A stretch of DNA of 64,000 bases from an uncultured Alphaproteobacteria bacterium (GCA_902585605.1 CACIED010000001.1:560240-624239); one strand, 5' to 3'; shown: positions 1,092-41,645, numbered from the stretch's first letter. Made by a program: numbers and translations. The notes: a model not told the origin generated them from the letters alone.

Positions 1092-2918
1092 TTAGTTTGA
1101 TGTTCTATTTGACTGGATTGTTTCGAATTTATTCTGATTAATCCACCATGTGTCAAAGCCTAAAGAATATTTTGGTTTTATTTTTGGTTGATCAAAAAAA
1201 TCCCAATATAAAACTCTATATGATGAAATATGCCATTGAGGAATAACATAGTAATTCCATAGAAGAACACGATCAAGAGCTTTGGTTATTATAATTAATT
1301 CTTCTCTATCACTAGCATTAATTAGACTTTCAATTAATCCATCTACAGCATAATTTTTAATACCAACAACATTTCTAGAGCCATCAGTGTCTGCAGCATC
1401 AGAACCCCAAAAATTTCTTTGCTCATTACCTGGTGATAATGATTGTCCAAATGTTTGCACAACCATATCAAAATCAAAAGTTTCCATTCTTTTTTGATAT
1501 TGAGCACTATCTATTGTTCTTACCTCAGCAATTATTCCCAATTTTTCAAGATTATCTTTAAATGGAAAAACTATTCTCTCAAAAGCTGGCGATCGTAATA
1601 AGATTTCAAATTCAAAAGGTTCTTTTGTACTAGAATGTAAAAGTTTACCATCAACTAATTCCCATCCAGATTCTTCTAAAAGTTTTGAAGCTTCTTGCAA
1701 TTGCATCCTCATATAACCCGAACCATCTGTAACTGGATTTGTATACTCTTTTGTAAATACTTCTTTTGGTAGTACATCAAAATATGGATTTAAATAATTT
1801 AATTCTTCTTTTGAAGGAAGACCAGAGGAAGCAAGTTCTGAATTTTCAAAAAAGCTATCTGTTCTTTTATATGCATCAAAAAATAAATTTTTATTAGACC
1901 ACTCAAAATCAAAAGCATAAGAAAGAGCTTTTCTTACTCTTCTATCTTTAAATTTATCTTTTCTAATATTAAATGCAAAACCTTGCATACCTTGTGGATT
2001 TTCATGACTTATTAATTCTTTTTTAATTAAGCCTTCATTCACTGCGTTTATATCATACGCAGTTGCCCACTCTTTTGATGAATTTTCAGAGAAGAAATCA
2101 ATCTCACCAGATTTAAAAGCTTCTCTTTCAATACCTCTGTCTTTGTAATAATCATATCTAATTGTGCCAAAGTTATCTTTACCAATTTTAATTGGTATTA
2201 ATGCATCAAAACCCCAATAATTTTGATCTAGTTCGTAGGTAATTGATCTACCACTATCAAATGATTTAATCTTATATGGACCACTTCCAATTGGTATTTC
2301 CAGAGATGTTTCTTCAAAGTTTTTATTTTCCCAATAATGTTTTGGTAGTACAGGTAGTTGACCAACAATTAACACTAATTCTTTATTCGTATTTGTTGTA
2401 AAATTAAATCTAACTTTATTTTCTTGTTCTTTAATTACTTCTTTTACATCTCCATAGTAGTATTTATAAAATGGGTGGCCTTTTTCCATTAAGGTATTAA
2501 ATGTCCAAACAACATCGTCAGCTGTAATTTTTTTCCCATCATGCCAATACGCTTCGTCTCTTAATGTAAATGAAACCCATGATCTATCATCTGGCCATTC
2601 AATCGTTTCTGCCAATAATCCGTATTCCGTAAATGCTTCATCGCTTGATCCCGTTGTTAATGTTTCATACAATCCTCCAATTCCAGCAGCAGACGTACCT
2701 TTTAAAATAAATGGATTGAAACTGTCATAGGTTCCAATGGCACTTCTTACTATTGATCCACCTTTTATTGAATTTGGATTAATATAATCAACATTTTCAA
2801 AATTTTTTGAGTATTTTGGCTCACCATGCATTGCAATTGCATGTGATATATAAGTATTTGCTTGTGCTTTTAATTGAAAAATTAGAGTAAACGTAAAGAT
2901 TAAAGCGAGTATTTTCAT
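1092..2918 (-). CDS. yejA: Peptide ABC transporter substrate-binding protein YejA
   Basis: Signal peptide; HAIAMHGEPKY, GTYDSFNPFILKG and YGLLAE motifs typical of YejA (SBP family 5); followed by yejB. Confidence 0.9.
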   Translation of the reverse strand: MKILALIFTFTLIFQLKAQANTYISHAIAMHGEPKYSKNFENVDYINPNSIKGGSIVRSAIGTYDSFNPFILKGTSAAGIGGLYETLTTGSSDEAFTEYGLLAETIEWPDDRSWVSFTLRDEAYWHDGKKITADDVVWTFNTLMEKGHPFYKYYYGDVKEVIKEQENKVRFNFTTNTNKELVLIVGQLPVLPKHYWENKNFEETSLEIPIGSGPYKIKSFDSGRSITYELDQNYWGFDALIPIKIGKDNFGTIRYDYYKDRGIEREAFKSGEIDFFSENSSKEWATAYDINAVNEGLIKKELISHENPQGMQGFAFNIRKDKFKDRRVRKALSYAFDFEWSNKNLFFDAYKRTDSFFENSELASSGLPSKEELNYLNPYFDVLPKEVFTKEYTNPVTDGSGYMRMQLQEASKLLEESGWELVDGKLLHSSTKEPFEFEILLRSPAFERIVFPFKDNLEKLGIIAEVRTIDSAQYQKRMETFDFDMVVQTFGQSLSPGNEQRNFWGSDAADTDGSRNVVGIKNYAVDGLIESLINASDREELIIITKALDRVLLWNYYVIPQWHISSYRVLYWDFFDQPKIKPKYSLGFDTWWINQNKFETIQSNRTSN

Positions 2919-2959
2919 ATTTGTAATATATGTCGATTTATTAAAAATTAAAATAAATT

Positions 2960-3733
2960 TTAGTTTATTAATTTAATTATTTCATCATGAAGCGAGCTTG
3001 TACTGGAAGCAACTAAACTGCCATCTGAGTCTAAAGATATATCTTGTCCAAACTTATCCGTAATTACTCCACCAGCTCCTTCAATTACATTTACAAGAGC
3101 CATATAATCATGCACTTTTAATGTATCTTCTAAAACAATATCAATTAAACCTGAGGCTAACATCCCATACATATAACAATCACCACCCAGTCTATAATAT
3201 CTTGATTTTTCTTTTAGTAATTCTAATCCCATTCTGATTTGAGGTTCATTAAAATATAATCCAGATGTAAAAAGATAGGCATCTTTAATTTGTTTAATAG
3301 TACTAGTTTGAACATCTTTTCCATTACATTTTGTCTTTTGATTTTTTTCTCCTATCCACCGCTCATTGTGTGCTGGACAATTAATAATCCCTAAAACTGG
3401 TTTTTTGTTATGAAGCAATGCAATTAAATTACCAAAATCTTTATGTCCAGCTATATAACTTCTTGTTCCATCTATGGGATCTAGTACCCATAAAAACTCA
3501 GAGTCTATTTTTTCATTTTCATATTCTTCACCCAAAATTCCATGATCAGGATATTCTTTTCTTATTCTCTCTCTTAAAACTTGTTCTGTTTCTTTATCTG
3601 CTAAAGTTACAGGACTTTCATCAACTTTAATTTCTATTTCAATTTTATTTCTAAAATAATGCATCGAAGTTTTAGATGCATCATCGGCTAAAGAGTTTGC
3701 AAATTTTGAAAACTCTTCTGTATCTATGATCAT
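2960..3733 (-). CDS. hisN: Histidinol-phosphate phosphatase (inositol monophosphatase family)
   Basis: DESPVTLAD, ILGEE, WVLDPIDGT and DYMAL IMPase motifs; alphaproteobacterial HisN-like length and context. Confidence 0.75.
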   Translation of the reverse strand: MIIDTEEFSKFANSLADDASKTSMHYFRNKIEIEIKVDESPVTLADKETEQVLRERIRKEYPDHGILGEEYENEKIDSEFLWVLDPIDGTRSYIAGHKDFGNLIALLHNKKPVLGIINCPAHNERWIGEKNQKTKCNGKDVQTSTIKQIKDAYLFTSGLYFNEPQIRMGLELLKEKSRYYRLGGDCYMYGMLASGLIDIVLEDTLKVHDYMALVNVIEGAGGVITDKFGQDISLDSDGSLVASSTSSLHDEIIKLIN

Positions 3734-3742
3734 TAATTTAGT

Positions 3743-4288
3743 TTATGGAAGAGGTGCTGGATTATCTGAGTGTTCTCTTAGGAAATAAACTAAGTCTGCT
3801 CTATCTTTTACTTTTTTCAAACCTGCAAAGTTCATTTTTGTACCTTTTATATATTTTTTTGGTTTATATAAAAATTCTGCTAATTCTTCATATCCCCATT
3901 CTCCACCATATTCAGCTAAAGCTTTGGAGTATGCAAAACCTTCAACATTTGCTTTTGGTCTATTTATAATATTCCATAAGTGTGGACCTACTTTATTTGC
4001 ACTACCTTTTTCGTAATTATGGCAAGTAGCACATTTTTTGAATAATTTTTCTCCATTATCGAGAGAAGCACTTGCTAATAACATTGAAATTGGCTCAATT
4101 ACTTCTTCTTTTTTTTCTACTACTCCAACGCCAGTCGAATCCTCAGGAACGTCTATTTTATAAGCTGTTTCTTTTTTTTCATCATGATCAATATTAATGA
4201 CTAAATCTCCAAAATGCCCGATAAGGGTAACAATTAAGACTGCTAATATAATAGATGCTAAAATTTTATTAACTTCAAGCCCAGACAT
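3743..4288 (-). CDS. cycM: Membrane-anchored class I cytochrome c (CycM / cytochrome cy type)
   Basis: True start MSGLEVNKIL at 4288; N-terminal TM helix, CATCH heme motif, VGPHL and GTKMNFAGL. The longer track ORF extends antisense into kdsB. Confidence 0.88.
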   Translation of the reverse strand: MSGLEVNKILASIILAVLIVTLIGHFGDLVINIDHDEKKETAYKIDVPEDSTGVGVVEKKEEVIEPISMLLASASLDNGEKLFKKCATCHNYEKGSANKVGPHLWNIINRPKANVEGFAYSKALAEYGGEWGYEELAEFLYKPKKYIKGTKMNFAGLKKVKDRADLVYFLREHSDNPAPLP

Positions 4289-31977: not shown

Positions 31978-32772
31978 ATGGAAATAAATAAAATTACGAA
32001 TTTATTGAATCTGGAGCATGTTAAGTTTTTAATATCTATCTTTAAAGAAAATAATATTGAAATTCGATTAGTAGGAGGATGTATACGAGATGCTCTTCTT
32101 GAAAGAGAAATCAAAGATATTGATACAGCAACAACTTTGGAGCCTCAGGATGTTTTGTCATTACTAAAAGAGAACAATATTGAATATGATGATTTTGCTA
32201 TTCAATATGGATCTATAATTGCTTATCCTCATAATCGAAAAATACAAATTACAACTTTACGTGAAGATATTAATCAAATGGGAAGACATACAAATGTAAT
32301 TTACACCAACAGCTGGAAAAAAGATTCAGCCAGAAGAGATTTTACTTTCAATGCTTTATATGTTGGAAACAATAATAAACTACATGATTATTACAATGGC
32401 CAATCAGATTTAAAAGAGAGTAAAATTTGTTTTATTGGTGAAATAGAGGATAGAATAAAAGAAGATTACTTAAGAATCTATCGATACTTTAGATTTAGAG
32501 GTTTATTTAATTTACCTAAAACATCTTTAAGTGATCAAAAAATTGTAGAAAAATATATTCACGAATCTTTAGCAGTGTTGACCAACGATGTAATAAGGCA
32601 AGAAATATTAAAAATGTTTAATATGTCTTTTCCATTAAATTGTTTTTACATATCTCATCAAACGTTACAAAAATTTAAATGGGTTGAAATAGTGCAAGAG
32701 CATTTCATACGAACAAAATATGATCTTGGATTAAATAAATGTCTGAATAAGATTGATAATTTAATAAATTAG
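31978..32772 (+). CDS. Class II tRNA nucleotidyltransferase (CCA-adding type), short form
   Basis: VGGCIRD, DIDTAT, TTLRED, RRDFTFNAL, DYYNGQSDL and EDYLR; only 264 aa. Confidence 0.78.
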   Translation: MEINKITNLLNLEHVKFLISIFKENNIEIRLVGGCIRDALLEREIKDIDTATTLEPQDVLSLLKENNIEYDDFAIQYGSIIAYPHNRKIQITTLREDINQMGRHTNVIYTNSWKKDSARRDFTFNALYVGNNNKLHDYYNGQSDLKESKICFIGEIEDRIKEDYLRIYRYFRFRGLFNLPKTSLSDQKIVEKYIHESLAVLTNDVIRQEILKMFNMSFPLNCFYISHQTLQKFKWVEIVQEHFIRTKYDLGLNKCLNKIDNLIN

Positions 32773-33188
32773 TTTTTTAGTTTACAATTTTCGCACAAAC
32801 CAAATATTTCTAAATTATGTTTTTTATAATTGAAGTTATTTTTTTCTGCTTGTTTTGAAAAATAAGAAAACAAATTATTTCCAGTTAGCTCAGTAACACT
32901 ATCACAGTTTTCACATATCAAAAAAGATGTAGAAGTTTTTGCATTACAGCCTTCATGCTTACAAGCAACATATGAATTTCTACTTTCTATTTTATGTACT
33001 TTACCAATTTCTATAAGCTTATCTAAAGCTCTATAAACTTGAAGAGGAGATTTAATTCCTTTTTTTTGAATATCAAAAAGGATTGTATATGCTTTAAGAG
33101 GTTCTGATGAGTTTTCTAAAATATCAAGAACTGTTTTCTGGTTTTTGGTTAAATTTACTGATGCTAATGCCATAATTTTAATTAACAA
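32769..33188 (-). CDS. zur: Zinc uptake regulator (Fur family)
   Basis: LTKNQ, VYRALDKL and two CxxC pairs; co-transcribed downstream of znuCB. An alternative start at 33173 is possible. Confidence 0.88.
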   Translation of the reverse strand: MLIKIMALASVNLTKNQKTVLDILENSSEPLKAYTILFDIQKKGIKSPLQVYRALDKLIEIGKVHKIESRNSYVACKHEGCNAKTSTSFLICENCDSVTELTGNNLFSYFSKQAEKNNFNYKKHNLEIFGLCENCKLKN

Positions 33189-33195
33189 ATAGTTT

Positions 33196-33999
33196 TCATT
33201 TTTGCAACTGACCCTTTATCTCCAGAGGAATAAGTGAAATAATAAATAATAATAATGCAACTACAATTATAGAAGGCCCTGAAGAAGTATTAATCTCAAG
33301 CGAAACAAACAATCCTGCAATTACAGATACGACACCAGCTAAAGTTGCACTTATAACCATTTGACGAGGACTGCTGCTAATATTTCTTGCAATTGCTGCA
33401 GGTATTAAAAGTAAACCAGTTATCAATAAAGCGCCAATCATTTTAATAGATAAAGCAATTACTCCTGCCAATAAGAGTGTGAATATAAAATTAGAAACTT
33501 CTGGTCGCATTCCTTCTGCTGCTGACAAATCATAATTTACCGTTGCTGAAAATAAAGATTTCCAAATAAAGTACAAAATCAATAATATTGTAGCACCACC
33601 TAAATAAACTATAGTTATATCTTCTACATCAACTGCAAGTATATCTCCAAATAATAAACCCATAAGGTCAAATCTAATTGATGTAAGAAACCCAATTAAT
33701 ACTAAACCTATAGCAAGTGTAGAGTGAGCAAGTAGACCGAGTAATGAGTCTCCTGCGAGTTTTGTTCTTTTTTGTAAATTAATTAATAGTAAAGCAACAA
33801 CAGCTGAAATTATAAAAACTGAAAATGTAATATTAAAGCTAAAAGAATAAGCTAAAGTTACACCCAATAATGCCGAGTGAGACAGCGTATCTCCAAAATA
33901 GGATAACCTTCTCCAAATTACAAGACATCCTAGAGGTCCGGCAATTATTGCAATACCAATGCCAGCTATGAGAGCTCTAGTAAAAAAATCATCAAACAT
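33196..33999 (-). CDS. znuB: Zinc ABC transporter permease
   Basis: GPLGCLVIWRRLSYFGDTLSHSALLG, LFGDIL and GPSI. Confidence 0.93.
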   Translation of the reverse strand: MFDDFFTRALIAGIGIAIIAGPLGCLVIWRRLSYFGDTLSHSALLGVTLAYSFSFNITFSVFIISAVVALLLINLQKRTKLAGDSLLGLLAHSTLAIGLVLIGFLTSIRFDLMGLLFGDILAVDVEDITIVYLGGATILLILYFIWKSLFSATVNYDLSAAEGMRPEVSNFIFTLLLAGVIALSIKMIGALLITGLLLIPAAIARNISSSPRQMVISATLAGVVSVIAGLFVSLEINTSSGPSIIVVALLLFIISLIPLEIKGQLQK

Positions 34000-34741
34000 T
34001 ATTTGTTACTCTCCCATCTGTTTCATGAGAATGATCATGATCATGTTGATAAAGTGATAGAGTTGTGGCGTTATGTTCACCAAATAATTCTATGTATGCC
34101 GAATTCTTTACAATTGATCTTGGCGTTCCAGAGCAACATATATGACCATTTAAGCAAATTACATGATCTGTAGCTGACATAACAAAATGAAGATCATGTG
34201 ATATCAGTAATATTCCACAATTAAGTGTTGAACAAATTTTTTTAATAAGATTATAAAGTGCAATTTCTCCATTAAAATCTACACCTTGAACTGGTTCATC
34301 CAAAACAAGTAAGTCTGGTTTTTTTGCGATTGCTCTGGCGATTAAGACTCTTTGAAATTCTCCGCCAGATAAATTATGAATATCGTTATAGAGAAGGTTA
34401 TCTACTCCAGTTAATTTTAAAGCATCAACAATTTCAAGATTATTTATATGACTTGTTAATTTCATAAAATCAACGACACGAAGAGGCATTGTCCAATCAA
34501 TATTAATTTTTTGTGGTACGTAAGCCATTTTAGAAGCAAAGTTTTTTATTTGCCCTTCATCAGACTTAAGTATCTTAAGTATCATTTTAGCTGAAGTTGT
34601 TTTTCCAGAACCATTAGGCCCTATTAGAGTAACAATTTTCCCCTTGTGAATTTCCAAGCTTATTCCTCGTACAATCCACTTGGATGACTTGTACACACCA
34701 CAGTTATCTAGTTTAACCAATAAATTATTATTTTCTGCCAT
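33992..34741 (-). CDS. znuC: Zinc ABC transporter ATPase
   Basis: GPNGSGKT, LSGGEFQR, LDEP, HVICLNGHICCSG and a His-rich tail. Confidence 0.93.
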   Translation of the reverse strand: MAENNNLLVKLDNCGVYKSSKWIVRGISLEIHKGKIVTLIGPNGSGKTTSAKMILKILKSDEGQIKNFASKMAYVPQKINIDWTMPLRVVDFMKLTSHINNLEIVDALKLTGVDNLLYNDIHNLSGGEFQRVLIARAIAKKPDLLVLDEPVQGVDFNGEIALYNLIKKICSTLNCGILLISHDLHFVMSATDHVICLNGHICCSGTPRSIVKNSAYIELFGEHNATTLSLYQHDHDHSHETDGRVTNNV

Positions 34742-34758
34742 TTTATTATTTACAACTT

Positions 34759-34781
34759 AAAATGTTATATTATAACATTAC
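34759..34781. promoter_or_regulatory. Zur box
   Basis: AAAATGTTATA-T-TATAACATTAC matches the proteobacterial Zur consensus GAAATGTTATA-W-TATAACATTTC at 21 of 23 positions, between divergent znuC and znuA. Confidence 0.88.
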
Positions 34782-34819: not shown

Positions 34820-35938
34820 ATGAAACAAATGAATATTTTTCTACATGTTTTTAAAATTATCTTGTTTTCAGGAATTCTTGTTGCAACTGCATCTGCTAGA
34901 GCAGAACTAAAAGTTGTAACGACTATTAAACCACTTCATTCATTGATTGCTAATGTTATGAATGGAATTGGTGAACCTGGACTTATAATTGAAGGAAGCA
35001 TATCTCCACATAGTTTTACTATGAAACCATCTCATGCAAAAATGCTTGAAGAAGCAGATATAGTATTTTGGATTGGTGAGAGTATTGAGACATCATTAGA
35101 AGAACCTCTGGAGTCAATAGCAAAAAGTGCTGAAGTCGTAGAGTTTATGGAAGTTGAAACAATTGCTAAATTAAAATTTAGAGAAGAATCTATATTTGGT
35201 GACCACGATGATCATGACGATCACGACGACCATGACGACCATGACGACCATGACGACCATGACGACCATGACGACCATGACGATCACGATGATCATGACG
35301 ATCATGATGACCATGACGATCACGATGATCACGATGATCATGACGATCACGACGATCACGACGACCATGACGACCATGACGATCATGATGATCATGACGA
35401 TCACAGTGGACACGACGACCACGGTCATGCACATGGTGAATTTGATGCTCACATTTGGTTAGATCCAATGAATGCTAAAGAAATGGTTCATGAGATTGCT
35501 CATGAGTTAGGTGATTTAGATCCTGCCAATAAAGAGAAATATGAAGCAAATGCTGATGCAACAATCAAAGCTTTAGACCAATTGATAAATGACGTTAGCA
35601 AGGATATTAATTCCGATGCAAAATTTGTCGTTTTCCATGACGCCTACCAATACTTTGAAGAAAGATTTGGTGTAAGAGCTGCAGGAGCTTTAACATTGAA
35701 TACTGATGTTTTACCTGGTGCAAAGCAAATAGCTGATATTCAGGATGTTATTAAGGATAAGGGAATAAAATGTATTTTCTCTGAACCTCAATTTAATCCA
35801 AAGATTATTTCAACAATAGCTGAGGATATGAATATCAAAACAGGAGTTTTTGATCCTTTAGGTGCTAACATCGATGCTGGTAAGTCACTTTACTTTACGT
35901 TGATTAGTAATCTCGGGGACGAGCTTAAAGGCTGTTAA
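34820..35938 (+). CDS. znuA: Zinc ABC transporter substrate-binding protein with a very long His/Asp loop
   Basis: VVTTIKPLHSL, SPHSF, DAHIWLDP, VFHDAYQYFE and LDPLG-like motifs; the loop carries the HDD repeat. Confidence 0.93.
   Translation: MKQMNIFLHVFKIILFSGILVATASARAELKVVTTIKPLHSLIANVMNGIGEPGLIIEGSISPHSFTMKPSHAKMLEEADIVFWIGESIETSLEEPLESIAKSAEVVEFMEVETIAKLKFREESIFGDHDDHDDHDDHDDHDDHDDHDDHDDHDDHDDHDDHDDHDDHDDHDDHDDHDDHDDHDDHDDHDDHDDHSGHDDHGHAHGEFDAHIWLDPMNAKEMVHEIAHELGDLDPANKEKYEANADATIKALDQLINDVSKDINSDAKFVVFHDAYQYFEERFGVRAAGALTLNTDVLPGAKQIADIQDVIKDKGIKCIFSEPQFNPKIISTIAEDMNIKTGVFDPLGANIDAGKSLYFTLISNLGDELKGC
35201..35404 (+). repeat. Coding 9-bp tandem repeat encoding D-H-(DDH)22
   Basis: His codons every 9 nt from 35204 to 35402 (23 His); synonymous cac/cat and gac/gat variation; five identical CATGACGAC copies from 35231. 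Confidence 0.95.
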
Positions 35939-35954
35939 TTTTTAATATTTAAAT

Positions 35955-35983
35955 AAATTCCACCTTGTATTAAGGTGGAATTT
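35955..35983. terminator. Hairpin AAATTCCACCTT-GTATT-AAGGTGGAATTT downstream of znuA
   Basis: Perfect 12-bp stem 16 nt after the znuA stop; only a short U-tract follows. Confidence 0.65.
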
Positions 35984-36009
35984 GTTGAACTAATTATAAG
36001 GAAATTGAT

Positions 36010-36981
36010 ATGGAAAATACTTCTCAGGTTCCAGTTACGGTTTTAACAGGTTTTCTTGGAGCTGGAAAAACAACACTTTTAAATCGAATTTTAACTGAAC
36101 AGCATGGACGTAAATACGCTGTCATTGTTAATGAATTTGGTGAGCAGGGAATTGATAATGACCTTGTTGTTGATGCTGATGAAGAAGTATTTGAAATGAA
36201 TAACGGTTGCATTTGTTGCACTGTTAGGGGTGATTTAATTAGAATTCTTAGTGGTTTAATGAAACGTGCTGACAAACTAGATGCAATTATAGTTGAAACA
36301 ACTGGTTTAGCTGATCCAGCCCCAGTTGCTCAGACATTTTTTGTTGATCAAGACGTTGCTGATAGAACAAAATTAGATGCAATTGTTACAGTTGCTGATG
36401 CTGTTCATCTAAGTTCTCAACTAGTAGATCATCATGAAGCAGAAGAGCAAATTGCTTTTGCTGATGTAATTTTGTTAAATAAAGTTGAACTTGTTGAAGA
36501 TAATGACATTGTGAAAGTTAATGATCGTATTAGAAAAATAAATCCTTTTGCAAAGATTATTAAAACAACACGTTGTGATGCACCTCTTGATGAAATCGTG
36601 GGCTTAAATGCATTTAGTCTAGATAGAGTATTAGATATTGAACCTGACTTTCTTGAATCAGATCATGATCATGAACATGATGATGATGTTACTAGTCTAT
36701 CCTTTGTATCTGATACACCATTAGATATGGATAAGTTTCAAGATTGGTTTGGAAATTTACTTAGGACTAAGGGCCAGGATATTCTTCGATCAAAAGGCAT
36801 TTTGAACTTTAAAGGTGAAGAAGAGCGATATGTATTTCAAGGAGTGCATATGCTTATGGATGCTTCACCAATGGGACCTTGGCCTAAAGGAAAAGATAGA
36901 AGTTCTCGAGTAGTATTTATTGGTCGTGATCTTGATAATATGAATCTTAAGGAAGGCTTTGAAAATTGTAAATCAGCATGA
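36010..36981 (+). CDS. COG0523 / CobW-family G3E GTPase metallochaperone
   Basis: [22 protein letters not shown] (CxCC), ETTG, a His-rich SDHDHEHDD segment and CobW_C (LRSKG, FQGVH). Confidence 0.92.
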
Positions 36982-38015
36982 ACGCTGATTTAGAAAAACT
37001 TCAAGAATCAAATAAAACTGAACTTGAAAGAAGAGGTTCAATTTTTAATATTGGAGCTCCAGCTACAGAAGCGGTTACAATTCGTGATCAAATAGCGGTA
37101 GGATTTGGAGACGGCACCGTAAGATTTTTTCAATCTGGATCTGATCCTAAAACTGTTAAAGCACATAAGGGTGTAGTGTTGAGTATGACAAATTATGAAG
37201 ATCATGTGTTAACGGGAGGAGACGATGGACGTTTTCTAAAAATATCATCTGATGGAAATATTGATGAAATTTTTAATTTTGGTTCAAAGTGGGTTGACTG
37301 TGTAGCTTCTCACAAAGATACTAAAGTTTGTTCATCAGGAAAGACTGTTTATATTTGGACAAAAAACAAAGATAAACCTCAAACTTTAGAGCATCAAAGT
37401 ACTGTTGCTGGATTAGCATTTGATAATAAAGGTAAGCGTCTTGCGGTCTCAAGATACGGTGGAGTAACAGTGTGGAAACTTAATAATAATAAATGGACAG
37501 CATCAAATTTTACCTGGAAAGGATCGCATGGAACTGTAACGTTTAGCCCAGATACAAAATATATTGTAACTGCAATGCAAGAAAATCAAATTCATGGTTG
37601 GCGCATAAATGACAAAGCGGATTTAGCAATGAGAGGTTATCCATCAAAAATTAAAAGTTTTACTTGGGTTGGTGATACACCGTATTTGGTAACATCTGGA
37701 TCCAGTGATGCAGTTTGCTGGCCATTTGATGGTAAAGAAGGACCAATGGGGAGAAAGCCAATTGTTGTTGCAAACGGTGGTAAAGAACTTGCAACATTTG
37801 TTAAAGCACTTAATGGAGAAAAAGCTGTTTTCACCGGTTTTACAGATGGGTCAGTTTTATTAGCAGAAATTGATGAAAGCAAAAAACCAATTATGATTAG
37901 AAGTTCAACAGGTTCAGAAGTTTCAACAATAGCTATATCTAGTGATAACTCACAAATATTAATTGGCGATATGAAAGGTTCTATTCTTTTATCATCTTTA
38001 TGGGCAGACAATTAA
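36978..38015 (+). CDS. WD40-repeat beta-propeller protein
   Basis: Repeated GH/WD-like units ([24 protein letters not shown]); overlaps the cobW stop. Confidence 0.82.
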
Positions 38016-38025
38016 AGGAGAAAAT

Positions 38026-38280
38026 ATGTTTAATCGTAAAACTCAAAATGTTGAAAAAATAAGAAATCTTAAACATTTAATTTCCAAGAAATATAAATTA
38101 CCAGAAAATACTATAATAAGTATTGCTGAGCTCAGTTGTCATGAACCTGATTGTCCACCAATTGAAACTGTAATTACTGCAAGAAATGAAGACGGATCAA
38201 TGAAAAATTGGCGAGTTGCAAAATCAATAGAAGAAATAGAGGAGTCAGATATTAATAATCTAACAAATCACACTCATTAA
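38026..38280 (+). CDS. Small hypothetical protein with a CHEPDCPP motif
   Basis: AAGGAG RBS; 84 aa; ELSCHEPDCPPIETVIT; ends in NHTH. Confidence 0.7.
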   Translation: MFNRKTQNVEKIRNLKHLISKKYKLPENTIISIAELSCHEPDCPPIETVITARNEDGSMKNWRVAKSIEEIEESDINNLTNHTH

Positions 38281-38303
38281 ATTATTAAATTTAAAATAAT
38301 TTA

Positions 38304-38387
38304 TTAACAGCAATCTCCACCTTCACAAGTACAGCAACAGCTACAACTGCAACCACACTTTGGTGGGTTTGGATTTTGATTTTTCAT
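38304..38387 (-). CDS. Cys-rich micropeptide, putative metallothionein (27 aa; 29 aa if started at 38393)
   Basis: Manual translation (MI)MKNQNPNPPKCGCSCSCCCTCEGGDCC followed by TAA TAA. AGGT RBS-like motif 6 nt before the second ATG. About 45% GC against near-zero GC in the flanks. Confidence 0.7.
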   Translation of the reverse strand: MKNQNPNPPKCGCSCSCCCTCEGGDCC

Positions 38388-38427
38388 AATCATACCTATA
38401 TATTTATTATAATAATTTAAAATACAA

Positions 38428-39285
38428 ATGAGAAAAGCATTAGAAATTAAACAATGTATGAAGACTTTCGAGGGTGACGGGATACCTGTAACGAGAGCTT
38501 TCCCTGTCCCTGGTATGAGAGAAAATGATCCATTTCTTCTTTTTGATCATTTCGGCCCAATTAATTATGAGCCAGGAGGAGCAACTGGCGTACCTGCGCA
38601 TCCTCATTGTGGATTTGAGGCAATTACTTACATGCTTGGTGGTGAGGTAGAACACAGAGACTCATTTGGTGGACAAGCAGAAATTGAAACTGGTGATGTA
38701 CAATGGATGACAACTGGATCAGGTTTAATCCACTCTGAATTAGTAACAGAAAAATTTAAGAAGAGTGGCGGTGTCATGCAAGGATTACAAATCTGGGTTA
38801 ACCTTCCAAAAAAAAATAAAAAAGTTAAACCTTGGTATCAACATATTAAAAGAAACACTATTCCAACAGTATCTGAAAATGCAAATATAGAAATTAAAGT
38901 TCTTGTGGGTGAAATAAATGGAACCAAATCCAAAGTTCAAACATATTCACCTGTATCAATATTTGATATTCAATTTTCAAAACCAGATATGACAAAGTTT
39001 AATGTTGATAAAGAACAAAATCTTATGATCTATATTATCGATGGTCAATTACAATTTAATGAGGAAGATAAAATCGCTAATAAAGGTGATATGATTTACT
39101 TTGATCAGTCAAGTGATGAGATTCAACTTACATCGATATCAGAAAAAGGATCCTACCTAGTTTTAGCAGGTAAGCCGCTTAAAGAACCTGTAGCACGTTA
39201 TGGTCCTTTTGTGGCAAATTCTGAAGGAGAAATCAAGCAAGCAATGATGGACTATCAAGAAGGAAAAATGGGAAGCTTAGCTTAA
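38428..39285 (+). CDS. Pirin family protein
   Basis: DPFLLFDH, HPHCGFE, WMTTGSG, QIWVNLP and YGPFV. Confidence 0.92.
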   Translation: MRKALEIKQCMKTFEGDGIPVTRAFPVPGMRENDPFLLFDHFGPINYEPGGATGVPAHPHCGFEAITYMLGGEVEHRDSFGGQAEIETGDVQWMTTGSGLIHSELVTEKFKKSGGVMQGLQIWVNLPKKNKKVKPWYQHIKRNTIPTVSENANIEIKVLVGEINGTKSKVQTYSPVSIFDIQFSKPDMTKFNVDKEQNLMIYIIDGQLQFNEEDKIANKGDMIYFDQSSDEIQLTSISEKGSYLVLAGKPLKEPVARYGPFVANSEGEIKQAMMDYQEGKMGSLA

Positions 39286-40352: not shown

Positions 40353-41645
40353 ATGGATAAGAATAGAAAAGTACATCAGTTTAAAAATCCTGTCCTTAAT
40401 TGGATAGAGTTTCGTTTACCAATTGTTTCTTATTTCAAAAAAGAATACGGCGATTATCCAATGCCTAAAAATTGTAATTATTTTTGGAGTTTTGGTGCAT
40501 TGGCAACAATTACACTTGTTACAATGATTGTAAGTGGAATTTTTCTTGCAATGAATTACACACCACATACTGATATGGCATTTGATAGTGTTGAAAGAAT
40601 AATGCGAGATGTCAATTACGGTTGGTTAATGCGATACATCCATTCAAATGGTGCAGCCTTTTTCTTCATCATAGTTTACATTCACATAGTAAGAGCAATG
40701 TATTTTGGTTCTTACAAATATCCAAGAGAACTTAATTGGATTTTAGGTGTATTCATATTTTTATTAATGATGGCTACTTCTTTTCTTGGTTACACATTAC
40801 CGTGGGGACAAATGTCTTATTGGGGAGCAACAGTTATAACAAATTTATTTAGCGCAATTCCATTTATTGGTGAGGGATTAAAAACATGGCTTCTTGGTGA
40901 TTACAATGTTGGTAATGCTACTTTAAACCGTTTCTTTGCTCTTCATTATGTTTTACCTTTTGTTATTTTTGGTGTTGTAGGATTACATGTTGCTGCAGTT
41001 CATGTTCATGGTTCAAATAATCCTGATGGAATTGATATTAAAACTAACAATGACTCAGTAAACTTTTTTCCATATATGTTAATTAAAGATACAGTAGCTA
41101 TGTGTGCTTTTGGTGTTGCTATTTCTGCAGTAATATTCTTTGGACCAAATCTTATGGCTGAAGTTGATAATTATATTCCAGCAGATCCGCTTGTTACTCC
41201 AGCTCACATTGTTCCAAACTGGTATCTTGCACCTTTTTATGCAATTTTAAGAGCAGTACCTGATAAATTAGGAGGAGTTCTCCTAATGTTTGGTGCGATA
41301 GTAATTCTCTTTGTGCTACCTTGGTTAGATAGATCAAAGGTAAGAAGCTGTAATTATAGACCAATATATAAGTGGTTTATGATGGGTTTTTTCGTTAACT
41401 TCTTTGCATTAGGCTACGTTGGTATGCTTCCTGCTGAAGGTTTATATCTTTTAATTGCTAGAGTAGGTTTACTTTACTACTTTGGTTTTTTCTTTATCAT
41501 TACACCTTTTGTTGGTTGGATAGAGAAGCCAAGTAAGCTACCGCTCAGTATTAGTGATGTTTATGCTAAAAATATAGCTCCTAATATTGGTGGAGGAGAA
41601 AAAGGAATTCCTTCACCAGCAATGCAAAAAGATACAAATCTATAA
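40353..41645 (+). CDS. petB: Cytochrome b
   Basis: Heme ligands RYIHSNG...YIH and FALHY...LH; PWGQMSYWG; the Qo motif reads PNWY. Confidence 0.97.
   Translation: MDKNRKVHQFKNPVLNWIEFRLPIVSYFKKEYGDYPMPKNCNYFWSFGALATITLVTMIVSGIFLAMNYTPHTDMAFDSVERIMRDVNYGWLMRYIHSNGAAFFFIIVYIHIVRAMYFGSYKYPRELNWILGVFIFLLMMATSFLGYTLPWGQMSYWGATVITNLFSAIPFIGEGLKTWLLGDYNVGNATLNRFFALHYVLPFVIFGVVGLHVAAVHVHGSNNPDGIDIKTNNDSVNFFPYMLIKDTVAMCAFGVAISAVIFFGPNLMAEVDNYIPADPLVTPAHIVPNWYLAPFYAILRAVPDKLGGVLLMFGAIVILFVLPWLDRSKVRSCNYRPIYKWFMMGFFVNFFALGYVGMLPAEGLYLLIARVGLLYYFGFFFIITPFVGWIEKPSKLPLSISDVYAKNIAPNIGGGEKGIPSPAMQKDTNL

What the first reader, a model, noticed from the sequence alone, without database searches (positions are those of the whole stretch)
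38304..38393. Unannotated 27-29 aa, 9-Cys micropeptide closing a Zur zinc locus: candidate new bacterial metallothionein type
Seen in sequence: the minus strand encodes (MI)MKNQNPNPPKCGCSCSCCCTCEGGDCC with tandem TAA TAA stops. Nine of the last 17 residues are Cys (CxCxCxCCCxC...CC), with no His or aromatic residues. An AGGT RBS-like motif lies 6 nt before the second ATG. The stretch is about 45% GC between nearly GC-free flanks, and the plus strand has no start codon, which argues for coding selection. It converges on the cobW-WD40 operon at the end of the zur/znu locus. Established: characterised bacterial metallothioneins (SmtA/BmtA, MymT) are about twice this size with different Cys spacing. 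Tiny size, a CGCS start and CC/CCC clusters are more typical of fungal and ciliate MTs. Inference: a minimal Zn/Cu/Cd-buffering peptide in a streamlined marine bacterium, missed by gene callers because it is under 30 aa. A Cys/Ser/Thr-rich RiPP precursor is less likely because no YcaO or radical-SAM enzyme is nearby.
Basis: partly seen in the sequence, partly recalled or inferred. Interest (0 to 1): 0.88.

Follow-up and report, generated by a model that had tools for sequence, protein, structure and literature searches.

The report
Tiny nine-cysteine peptide gene, marine bacteria
An unannotated 27-codon gene for a peptide that is one-third cysteine is real and kept by strong selection in two genera of abundant, genome-streamlined ocean bacteria (HIMB59/AEGEAN-169 type). 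It is most likely a new, very small metallothionein-like metal-binding peptide, but metal binding is untested and its link to the zinc-uptake genes holds in only one of the two genera.

Summary
The gene is found in 120 of 185 species genomes of the order, all in two genera. It was absent from the other 305 genera sampled across the class, from viral contigs, and from 1.84 billion representative proteins, apart from over-extended calls of this same gene.

Selection acts on the protein:
- pN/pS is about 0.07-0.08.
- Variable sites by codon position are 5/4/20 and 2/2/19.
- The two core Ser are AGY in one genus and TCN in the other.
- All nine Cys are invariant.

No Pfam, NCBIfam or PDB entry matches.

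In the window's genus the gene always lies tail-to-tail with the last gene of the Zur-controlled znuA unit, whichever gene that is. In the other genus it lies between unrelated genes. No Zur box precedes it anywhere, and a sister genus has the zinc operon without it. So "closing a Zur locus" is lineage-specific.

The genome lacks HMA-domain proteins, CDF efflux, ArsR/SmtB, YcaO and MbnB-type enzymes.

Best reading (about 0.6): a cytosolic metal-thiolate buffer or store, a new metallothionein-like family. Metal binding and metal specificity are untested. Marine metatranscriptomes hold the gene, but the data are unstranded.

The parts
38304..38387 (-). Coding sequence of the 27-aa peptide MKNQNPNPPKCGCSCSCCCTCEGGDCC plus its TAA stop (38306-38304). 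A second in-frame TAA follows at 38303-38301.
   Evidence: The start position is conserved as ATG/GTG/TTG in 63 of 64 distinct CDS variants. pN/pS is 0.07-0.08, with a third-position excess of variable sites.
38388..38393 (-). It is not conserved and is probably 5' leader.
   Evidence: In relatives this codon is ATA, ATT, ATC, GTG or GAA.
38394..38397 (-). AGGT, a Shine-Dalgarno-like motif 6 nt before the conserved ATG.
   Evidence: It is conserved in most genomes of the window's genus but absent in divergent members and in the second genus.
38406..38434 (-). Sigma-70-like promoter match TTCTCA-17-TATAAT, overlapping the first codons of the divergent pirin gene.
   Evidence: 10 of 12 matches. 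This is a consensus match only. In relatives a -35/-10 pair also lies just upstream of the ATG.
38281..38303 (.). 23-nt AT-only spacer between the peptide's stop and the stop of the convergent 84-aa gene. No G+C-rich terminator.
   Evidence: 0 terminator-like sites in 38000-38700.
38026..38280 (+). 84-aa orphan protein (CHEPDCPP motif), last gene of the znuA unit in this genome, convergent with the peptide.
   Evidence: No Pfam or NCBIfam match. The 112 relatives carry no functional name, at most 'hypothetical protein'.
34820..38015 (+). znuA (34820-35938), COG0523/CobW-ZigA-like GTPase (36010-36981) and WD40 beta-propeller (36978-38015): the Zur-controlled transcription unit that the peptide faces.
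34761..34779 (.). Zur box AATGTTATATTATAACATT in the znuC-znuA divergent spacer. It is the only such site in the window.
32769..34741 (-). zur (32769-33188), znuB (33196-33999), znuC (33992-34741).
38428..39285 (+). Pirin gene, divergent neighbour. It is not a conserved partner: MurJ replaces it in part of the genus.

Best explanation
The gene encodes a 27-residue, cytosolic, cysteine-thiolate metal-binding peptide: a minimal metallothionein-like protein that founds its own sequence family.

Shown: it is a real gene under strong protein-level selection, with nine invariant Cys in the pattern C-x-C-x-C-x-C-C-C-x-C-x(3-4)-C-C, a short Pro-rich hydrophilic N-terminus, no signal peptide, and no His or aromatic residues. 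It is present in marine metatranscriptomes.

Inferred: the nine thiolates wrap a small metal cluster, either about three Zn(II)/Cd(II) as in the Cys9 beta-domain of animal metallothioneins, or four to six Cu(I) as in the 26-residue fungal Cu-thioneins. The peptide thereby buffers or stores metal in a streamlined cell that has no recognisable HMA-domain protein, CDF exporter or ArsR/SmtB sensor.

Also inferred: in the window's genus the gene is always tail-to-tail, 23 to about 70 nt, with the end of the Zur-repressed znuA unit, with no G+C-rich terminator between them in the window. Strong transcription of the uptake operon under zinc scarcity could therefore run into the peptide gene and damp it, and Zur repression at zinc sufficiency would free it. 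That would give the reciprocal uptake/storage pattern known for znuA and bmtA in marine Synechococcus, without a Zur box at the peptide gene. In the second genus the gene is a stand-alone unit with its own promoter-like elements.
For: Gene reality:
- The frame is intact in 47 of 60 relatives and in 120 of 185 genomes of the order, and in 70 independent metagenome contigs.
- pN/pS is 0.073 and 0.082. Variable sites by codon position are 5/4/20 and 2/2/19. CDS divergence is 0.08 against 0.3-0.4 in the flanks.
- Core Ser codons are AGY in one genus and TCN in the other, and Cys codons switch TGT/TGC.
- There is no RNA-structure signal (z = -0.8 and -0.7).

Metallothionein-like composition:
- 9 Cys in 27 residues, all invariant.
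- This is the densest Cys window in the 64 kb and lies beyond all 100 shuffles.

Zinc context:
- In all 25 loci of the window's genus, and in 57 of 58 metagenome contigs of that type (the 58th is cut off), the peptide faces the last gene of the znuA unit, whether that gene is znuA, the 84-aa gene or DUF1636. The other flank varies between pirin and MurJ.

Genome context:
- No HMA, no CDF, no ArsR/SmtB (the controls ring in 13-14 of 14 genomes).
- The single MerR-like protein has no Cys.

Expression:
- Unitigs centred on the gene occur in several marine metatranscriptomes. In X43 the only unitig in 2 kb (3907-4174 of L040) covers the gene while both neighbours have zero depth. In X8 depth over the gene is 25-48 against 0-14 over the zinc-operon side (0 over the WD40 end, about 14 over the 84-aa gene).

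Precedent:
- Zur-linked reciprocal znuA/bmtA expression and zinc 'banking' in Synechococcus WH8102 (PMC9337993).
- 26-residue, 7-Cys fungal Cu-thioneins (PMC4755600).
- A Zn3Cys9His cluster in Pseudomonas metallothionein (PMC7387436).
Against: - No metal-binding datum exists, and the metal is unknown.
- There is no Zur box or other recognisable metal-sensor operator upstream in any locus (6 or more mismatches of 18, against 2 or fewer at the true znuC-znuA boxes).
- Zinc linkage is absent in the second genus, where the 84-aa gene is rare and unlinked.
- A sister genus keeps the whole zinc operon without the peptide.
- The only closed genome sampled in the order lacks the gene.
- Nine Cys within 17 residues, including CCC, is denser than in any characterised Zn3Cys9 domain, so the proposed stoichiometry is speculative.
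- The RNA data are unstranded unitigs whose ends coincide with polymorphic sites, so transcript ends and orientation are not shown.
- The absence of HMA and CDF rests on a 92%-complete genome and does not exclude pumps that lack those domains.
Confidence: 0.6

Rival explanations
1. A small cysteine-rich protein with a non-metallothionein role. Possibilities are a thiol redox buffer or ROS scavenger, a reserve of reduced sulfur or cysteine, or a small regulator that binds a partner protein, perhaps through a shared metal site.
For: The evidence for a real, selected peptide is the same. The gene has no metal-sensor operator, and in the second genus its context is unrelated to metals. The invariant non-Cys residues (P6, P9, G12, S14, G23) could form a partner-binding surface.
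Against: Cys9 with CxC/CC/CCC motifs and no aromatic or His residues is the classic metallothionein signature. Such dense thiols would bind Zn, Cu or Cd in vivo in any case. The strict placement at the tail of the znuA unit in one genus, across three different operon endings, is hard to explain without a zinc connection.
Confidence: 0.2
2. Precursor of a ribosomally synthesised, post-translationally modified peptide (a Cys/Ser/Thr-rich core modified into thioethers, thiazoles or a chalkophore-like metal chelator).
For: The core is rich in Cys, Ser and Thr behind a short N-terminal stretch. In the second genus a circularly permuted ATP-grasp gene and a methyltransferase lie nearby.
Against: The genome has no YcaO and no MbnB/TglH/DUF692 enzyme. 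No neighbour is shared between the two genera. The putative leader is only 10 residues. No transporter or protease is adjacent. The ATP-grasp belongs to the separate Anbu proteasome-like cluster and is absent from the window's locus. Radical-SAM/SPASM and LanC-type enzymes were not searched genome-wide.
Confidence: 0.06
3. Cysteine-sensing regulatory short ORF. Ribosome stalling at Cys codons would report Cys-tRNA supply and control a downstream gene, as polycysteine leaderless sORFs do in mycobacteria (bioRxiv 10.1101/834739).
For: The ORF is very Cys-dense. In the second genus and in divergent members of the window's genus, a -35/extended -10 pair ends 6-7 nt before the ATG, which would fit a leaderless mRNA.
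Against: There is no co-directional downstream gene in either genomic context; the next gene converges on it in both. Non-Cys residues and the exact Cys spacing are conserved at the amino-acid level, including Ser through a switch of codon family. A pure stalling element would not need that.
Confidence: 0.05
4. Not a gene: a chance ORF or a structured or regulatory DNA/RNA element in the spacer between the zinc operon and pirin.
For: It is below the size at which gene callers work. It is GC-rich relative to its flanks, as an RNA element could also be.
Against: The codon-position pattern, pN/pS of 0.07-0.08, the Ser AGY/TCN switch, and conserved start and stop codons in 64 distinct variants. 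No significant fold on either strand. The Cys density is beyond every shuffle.
Confidence: 0.02

Closest known systems
Bacterial metallothioneins of the SmtA/BmtA type (Pfam PF02069), including Zur-activated BmtA of marine Synechococcus and Pseudomonas PflQ2 MT
   Same: Small cytosolic Cys-rich bacterial proteins with nine Cys ligands (Zn4Cys9His2 in SmtA from my own knowledge; Zn3Cys9His in PflQ2 MT). They are tied to zinc homeostasis. In Synechococcus WH8102, storage (bmtA) is expressed reciprocally to znuABC through Zur.
   Different: They are about twice as long (my own knowledge), contain His ligands and a zinc-finger-like fold, and have a different Cys spacing. There is no profile match and no PDB match. 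Here there are no Zur boxes and no SmtB-type repressor.
Fungal family-8 Cu-thioneins (Neurospora crassa, Agaricus bisporus)
   Same: Nearly identical size (26 residues) with CxC motifs. They begin with a G/D-C-G-C-S-like stretch (sequence from my own knowledge) and have no aromatic residues (PMC4755600).
   Different: They have 7 Cys in the pattern X2-CXC-X5-CXC-X3-CXC-X2-C-X3. Here there are 9 Cys as C-x-C-x-C-x-CCC-x-C-x3-4-CC, with no spacers of 3-5 residues inside the core. They are eukaryotic and no homology is detectable.
Beta-domain of vertebrate metallothionein (M(II)3Cys9) and CCC/CC-rich ciliate Cd-metallothioneins
   Same: Nine thiolate ligands in about 30 residues form a three-metal cluster. 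CCC and CC runs occur in Tetrahymena Cd-MTs. Both statements are from my own knowledge and were not tested here.
   Different: Those are domains or repeats of larger proteins, whereas this is a free-standing 27-mer with the nine Cys compressed into 17 residues. There is no sequence relationship.
MymT of Mycobacterium tuberculosis
   Same: A small bacterial Cys-rich peptide that was also missed by annotation; a Cu(I)-binding metallothionein (role cited in PMC7387436).
   Different: It is about twice the size (my own knowledge) and copper-inducible. The exhaustive HMMER search returned no relative outside this lineage.
Polycysteine leaderless short ORFs of mycobacteria (Cys-responsive attenuators; bioRxiv 10.1101/834739)
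   Same: A very short, Cys-dense, possibly leaderless ORF.
   Different: Those precede and control co-directional operon genes. This one has no downstream co-directional gene, and its peptide sequence is itself conserved.

Membership tests
Metallothionein (functional class, Kagi/Binz criteria) | Low molecular mass, very high Cys content, few or no aromatic or His residues | tested here: met
   27 aa, 9 Cys (33%), no His, Phe, Tyr or Trp.
Metallothionein (functional class, Kagi/Binz criteria) | Characteristic conserved CxC / CC / CCC arrangement | tested here: met
   C-x-C-x-C-x-CCC-x-C-x(3-4)-CC is invariant in all 14 distinct peptides of the alignment and in all but one of the 64 distinct coding variants; the exception is the frameshifted G016 copy.
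Metallothionein (functional class, Kagi/Binz criteria) | High metal content bound in metal-thiolate clusters | not testable with these tools
   This needs the peptide plus ESI-MS, ICP-MS or spectroscopy. The peptide is also below the 30-aa limit of the structure predictor.
SmtA/BmtA bacterial metallothionein (Pfam PF02069 Metallothio_Pro) | Match to the family profile | tested here: not met
   No Pfam family matches even at E <= 10. NCBIfam gives none. A profile search of PDB sequences gives none.
SmtA/BmtA bacterial metallothionein (Pfam PF02069 Metallothio_Pro) | His ligands alongside the Cys ligands, and roughly twice this length | tested here: not met
   No His; 27 aa.
SmtA/BmtA bacterial metallothionein (Pfam PF02069 Metallothio_Pro) | Control by SmtB/ArsR or by Zur boxes at the promoter | tested here: not met
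   No ArsR/HTH_5 protein in the genome. No Zur-like box within 200 nt of the start in 40 loci.
Fungal family-8 Cu-thionein | Cys pattern X2-[CXC]-X5-[CXC]-X3-[CXC]-X2-C-X3 with 7 Cys | tested here: not met
   The pattern was taken from PMC4755600. Here there are 9 Cys with different spacing.
RiPP precursor peptide | Co-located or at least co-occurring maturase (YcaO, MbnB/DUF692, radical SAM/SPASM, LanC and others) | tested here: not met
   No YcaO and no MbnB/TglH family in the own genome. Neighbours in both contexts were identified and none is a known maturase shared by both. Radical-SAM/SPASM and LanC were not searched genome-wide.
Cys-responsive leader sORF / attenuator | Lies upstream of, and is co-transcribed with, the gene it controls | tested here: not met
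   The next gene on the peptide's 3' side is convergent in all 40 fetched loci and in the metagenome contigs where that flank is present.
Zur regulon member | Zur box at its own promoter | tested here: not met
   The canonical box is present only in the znuC-znuA spacer.

The most novel reading that the evidence does not exclude
The HIMB59/AEGEAN-169-type bacterioplankton carry the founding member of a new metallothionein family. It would be the smallest bacterial metallothionein (27 aa, Cys9) and unrelated to SmtA/BmtA and MymT. It would serve as the main cytosolic Zn/Cd/Cu buffer of cells that have dispensed with HMA-type and CDF exporters and with ArsR/MerR-type metal sensors. In one genus its expression would be coupled inversely to the Zur-controlled zinc-uptake operon purely by convergent, terminator-less gene arrangement, a sensor-free way to switch between uptake and storage.
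Probability: 0.3. Interest if true: 0.85.

Novelty: new variant of a known kind. Interest (0 to 1): 0.7.

Why it matters
Only two bacterial metallothioneins have a studied biological function (PMC7387436). A 27-residue, nine-Cys peptide conserved across two genera of globally abundant surface-ocean bacteria would add a third, unrelated type, and the smallest.

It would bear on how streamlined cells handle scarce zinc and toxic copper or cadmium without recognisable HMA-type or CDF exporters. It would also bear on cellular Zn/Cd quotas that matter for ocean trace-metal cycling.

The gene also shows how gene callers miss, or mis-call as over-extended ORFs, a strongly selected gene of fewer than 30 codons. 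The peptide is short enough to synthesise chemically, so the central claim can be tested directly.

Tried and rejected
2. A genome-contig scan for the back-translated CGCxCxCCCxC core returned 120 rows, mostly (TGC)n/(TGT)n simple repeats read as poly-Cys in high-GC genomes.
3. I looked for a divergent homologue in genus g7. The CFCSCPCCCC hit in G134 is an off-frame reading of the Ala-rich linker of ribosomal protein L7/L12, so I rejected it. The tail of the G134 zinc operon holds no Cys-rich ORF.
4. Looser Cys patterns in near-complete genomes without the gene (G036 closed, G040, G043, G061, G029) gave only off-frame noise, so the gene is truly absent or unassembled there.
5. RNA-element reading: folds on both strands are not better than shuffles.
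6. Zur-box search near the peptide in 40 loci found nothing better than 6 mismatches.
7. I tried to read transcript ends from metatranscriptome unitigs. The ends at about 38220 and 38390-38396 recur in several runs but coincide with polymorphic sites (38217 and the variable first ATG codon), so they may be assembly-graph breaks. No raw stranded reads were on offer.
8. The MerR-family hit as a possible CueR/ZntR regulator: the protein has no Cys and sits next to an IHF-like gene, so I rejected it.
9. Viral contigs gave no hit.
10. Literature: no paper holds the motif CGCSCSCCC, and the HIMB59/AEGEAN-169 and SAR11 'unknome' papers I read do not mention it.
11. Structure prediction was not attempted: the peptide is under the 30-aa limit, and a metal-free model of a thiolate cluster peptide would be meaningless.

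Full report
**1. Observation**

The minus strand at 38304-38393 carries a 29-codon ORF, MIMKNQNPNPPKCGCSCSCCCTCEGGDCC, ending in TAA TAA.

- Nine Cys in 17 consecutive codons is the highest Cys density of any stop-free frame in the 64-kb window. In 100 block shuffles the maximum was 4-6.
- GC is 0.48 inside the ORF and 0.12-0.13 in the flanks.
- AGGT sits 6 nt before the second ATG.
- The plus strand has no ATG across the stretch, but it does have one GTG and three TTG.

| Feature | Coordinates | Strand |
|---|---|---|
| zur | 32769-33188 | - |
| znuB | 33196-33999 | - |
| znuC | 33992-34741 | - |
| Zur box AATGTTATATTATAACATT | 34761-34779 | . |
| znuA | 34820-35938 | + |
| COG0523/CobW-type GTPase | 36010-36981 | + |
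| WD40 propeller | 36978-38015 | + |
| peptide | 38304-38393 | - |
| pirin | 38428-39285 | + |

The 84-aa gene's stop is only 23 nt from the peptide's stop.

**2. It is a real protein-coding gene**

A six-frame search found the frame, without internal stops, in 47 of 60 relatives: 27 of 36 genomes of the window's genus (g1) and 20 of 24 of a genus (g2) in another family of the same order. A profile of 14 distinct peptides (A1) found it in 120 of 185 species genomes of the order, all in those two genera. Most of these genomes are 55-90% complete.

The peptides are:
- g1: MKNQNPNPPKCGCSCSCCCTCEGG(D/G)CC
- g2: M(D/E)(N/T/Y)NKPKPDCGCSCSCCCTCG(D/E)GCC(Q/S/N)

M1, P6, P9, G12, S14, G23 and all nine Cys are invariant.

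At the nucleotide level:
- Cys codons switch freely between TGT and TGC.
- The two core Ser are AGY in g1 and TCN in g2. That codon-family change keeps the amino acid and cannot be explained by selection on DNA or RNA.
- Variable sites by codon position are 5/4/20 in g1 and 2/2/19 in g2.
- pN/pS is 0.073 in g1 and 0.082 in g2.
- The CDS diverges by 8% where the 40-nt flanks diverge by 30-43%.

The second ATG is ATG in 61 of 64 distinct variants and TTG, GTG or ATA in the other three. The product is therefore 27 aa (38387-38304).

Neither strand folds better than shuffles (z = -0.8 and -0.7). One genome (G016) has a one-base loss in a G-run that shifts the last codons. That is a sequencing error or a lone pseudogene.

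**3. Distribution and identity of the organisms**

- In 401 genomes drawn evenly from the class (307 genera), only g1 and g2 have the gene.
- A repeat-proof back-translated pattern found 70 true copies in marine metagenome contigs and none in viral contigs.
- HMMER against 1.84 billion representative proteins returned nine hits. Eight are this same gene, called from spurious upstream starts or in the frameshifted form, and one is unrelated.
- Pfam, NCBIfam and PDB sequences give nothing, even at E = 10.

Named records with the gene are low-GC 'uncultured Alphaproteobacteria bacterium' GORG-Tropics SAGs. For example AG-917-M08 has a 498,695-bp contig, the same length as G038:C1. Genome size is 1.3-1.6 Mb and GC is about 30%. 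The order has two main families, and SAG identifiers of this series are used for order HIMB59/AEGEAN-169 (PMC10734472, PMC10308909). From this I infer that the window belongs to that order, probably to family GCA-002718135. This is an inference and not a direct test.

**4. Genomic context: the zinc link is real but lineage-specific**

In all 25 fetched g1 loci the peptide lies tail-to-tail with whatever gene ends the znuA unit:
- znuA itself: 6 loci
- the 84-aa gene: 9 loci, including the window
- a DUF1636 gene inserted after the 84-aa gene: 10 loci

The other flank varies between pirin (22 loci) and MurJ (3 loci).

The independent metagenome set repeats this. Of 58 g1-type contigs, 57 show the arrangement and the last is cut off at that point.

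In all 15 fetched g2 loci and all 12 g2-type metagenome contigs there are no zinc genes. The fetched loci show Anbu | peptide | SAM-methyltransferase, with the methyltransferase further off or missing in four of them; the metagenome contigs show Anbu and/or the methyltransferase beside the gene. A circularly permuted ATP-grasp gene lies beyond Anbu.

The 84-aa gene occurs in only 5 g2 genomes. In the three I cross-checked (G038, G039, G046) it lies on a different contig from the peptide. Genus g7 of the window's own family has the complete zur-znuCB/znuA-cobW-WD40-84aa locus, but that locus ends against a convergent 185-aa gene with no Cys-rich ORF.

No Zur-like box lies within 200 nt of the peptide's start in any of the 40 loci (6 or more mismatches of 18). 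The same scan finds the znuC-znuA boxes with 2 or fewer mismatches.

Earlier notes of this scan said the gene 'always sits at the tail of the zinc operon'. That holds for g1 only.

**5. Expression signals**

A sigma-70-like match (TTCTCA-17-TATAAT, 38434-38406) precedes the gene. In g2 and in divergent g1 loci, a TTGTAA/TTGATT -35 and a TGnTAtt.A extended -10 end a constant 6-7 nt before the ATG, with no Shine-Dalgarno motif. That would fit a leaderless mRNA, but it is an inference. No G+C-rich terminator separates the peptide from the convergent operon.

Many marine metatranscriptome runs hold the stretch:
- In X8, depth over the gene is 25-48, against about 14 over the 84-aa gene, 0 over the WD40 end and 21 over pirin.
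- In X43, the only unitig in 2 kb of the g2 locus (3907-4174, depth 9.5) is centred on the gene, and both neighbours are at zero. Uniform DNA carry-over would not give that.

These are unstranded assembler unitigs. The recurrent ends near 38220 and 38390-38396 coincide with polymorphic sites. I therefore claim only that the gene is present in RNA libraries, probably as its own small transcript.

**6. What the rest of the genome says**

The 92%-complete genome has:
- no HMA domain, the metal-binding domain typical of CopA/ZntA-type pumps and of CopZ;
- no CDF cation-efflux protein;
- no ArsR/SmtB regulator;
- one MerR-family protein, which has no cysteine and sits beside an IHF-like gene, so it is not a CueR/ZntR-type sensor;
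- no YcaO and no MbnB/TglH/DUF692 enzyme.

The control genomes ring for HMA, CDF and ArsR in 13-14 of 14. These absences are soft because the genome is incomplete and was tested by domain. Even so, they point to a cell with little conventional equipment for exporting or sensing excess Zn, Cu or Cd.

**7. Interpretation**

The peptide meets every sequence criterion of a metallothionein: small, one-third Cys, CxC/CC/CCC motifs, and no aromatic or His residues. It belongs to no known metallothionein family.

The best-supported mechanism is a cytosolic thiolate-cluster peptide that buffers or stores metal. The size precedents are the 26-residue, 7-Cys fungal Cu-thioneins and nine-Cys clusters such as Zn3Cys9His in Pseudomonas MT. 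The physiological precedent is zinc 'banking' by BmtA, expressed as a mirror image of znuA in marine Synechococcus.

For g1 I propose, as an inference, that the invariant terminator-less tail-to-tail placement lets transcription of the derepressed znuA unit interfere with the peptide gene. That would give reciprocal control without a Zur box. A simpler alternative is that new Zur-controlled genes insert directly after znuA for their own reasons, which leaves an ancestral neighbour at the tail. The metal (Zn, Cd or Cu(I)) cannot be decided from sequence.

Rivals:
- Another thiol-based role, about 0.2.
- RiPP precursor, about 0.06. There is no maturase, no shared neighbour and only a 10-residue leader.
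- Cys-sensing leader ORF, about 0.05. There is no co-directional downstream gene in any locus examined, and the peptide sequence itself is conserved.
- Non-coding element, about 0.02.

**8. Novelty and verdict**

No paper in the searchable library contains the motif or mentions such a peptide in these bacteria. Earlier agents of this scan reached the same core reading on sibling genomes. That is not independent evidence.

What I add here:
- the second, zinc-free genomic context;
- the sister genus with the operon but no peptide;
- the negative Zur-box test;
- the start-codon assignment;
- the exhaustive negative homology search;
- the genome-wide lack of efflux systems, metal sensors and RiPP enzymes;
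- the metatranscriptome unitig evidence.

I rate it a new variant of a known kind: a new metallothionein-like family. Interest is 0.7, confidence in the gene is about 0.97, and confidence in the metal-binding function is about 0.6.

Noticed in passing
window 38026-38280 (+): An 84-aa orphan protein (MFNRKTQNVEKIRNLKHLISKKYKLPENTIISIAELSCHEPDCPPIETV...) is the last gene of the Zur-controlled znuA-cobW-WD40 unit. It has no Pfam or NCBIfam family. It has 112 relatives in marine data, none with a functional name (at most 'hypothetical protein'). It occurs in 60 of 185 genomes of the order. The conserved C-x-E-P-(D/N)-C-P-P motif suggests a small metal- or redox-related protein of the zinc-limitation response.
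   Followed up: partly
L001-L003, L005, L007, L008, L010, L015, L019, L021 (sibling genomes), between the 84-aa gene and the peptide: A 136-aa DUF1636 gene is present or absent as a cassette at the very end of the znuA unit in different species of the genus. The cobW-WD40-84aa block is likewise present or absent, and some species have znuA alone. The tail of the zinc operon is therefore a hot spot of gene gain and loss.
   Followed up: partly
own genome G000 (whole): No HMA domain, no CDF (Cation_efflux) and no ArsR/SmtB HTH_5 protein were detected in the 92%-complete genome, although each rings in 13-14 of 14 control genomes. This suggests an unusually bare metal-efflux and metal-sensing repertoire.
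   Followed up: partly
G000:C13:5530-5913 (L247 1530-1913, +): The only MerR-family protein in the genome (127 aa) contains no cysteine and directly follows an IHF-like gene. A proteorhodopsin-like 254-aa gene follows at L247 2070-2834.
   Followed up: partly
L023 (G016:C1, about 166349-166426): One genome carries the peptide gene with a one-base loss in a G-run (GGTGGGGGTG). This replaces the terminal CC with a 22-residue read-through tail. The same product appears as P0121 in the protein library. It is either a homopolymer sequencing error or a lone pseudogene.
   Followed up: partly
proteins P0114-P0120: Public gene calls of this locus exist only as over-extended ORFs of 40-75 aa that start at spurious upstream in-frame codons. 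P0114 even fuses the first 20 residues of the 84-aa protein to the peptide's upstream frame, which looks like an assembly chimera or a rearranged contig.
   Followed up: no
L170/L173 (G134:C1:83752-83781): The Ala-rich linker of ribosomal protein L7/L12 (GCTGCNGC... codons) reads as CFCSCPCCCCSC in another frame. This is a ready source of false 'Cys-rich micropeptide' hits in pattern searches.
   Followed up: yes
L026-L040 (second genus), about 1560-3840: The peptide's neighbours in the second genus are a circularly permuted ATP-grasp gene and an Anbu-type proteasome beta-subunit homologue, next to an FG-GAP/ASPIC protein. This is the conserved Anbu peptide-ligase/protease cluster in a streamlined marine genome.
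   Followed up: no
window 40946-41000 (+): The second-densest Cys frame in the window (7 Cys in 17 codons) is an off-frame reading inside the 430-aa ORF 40353-41645. It is noise and not a gene.
   Followed up: yes
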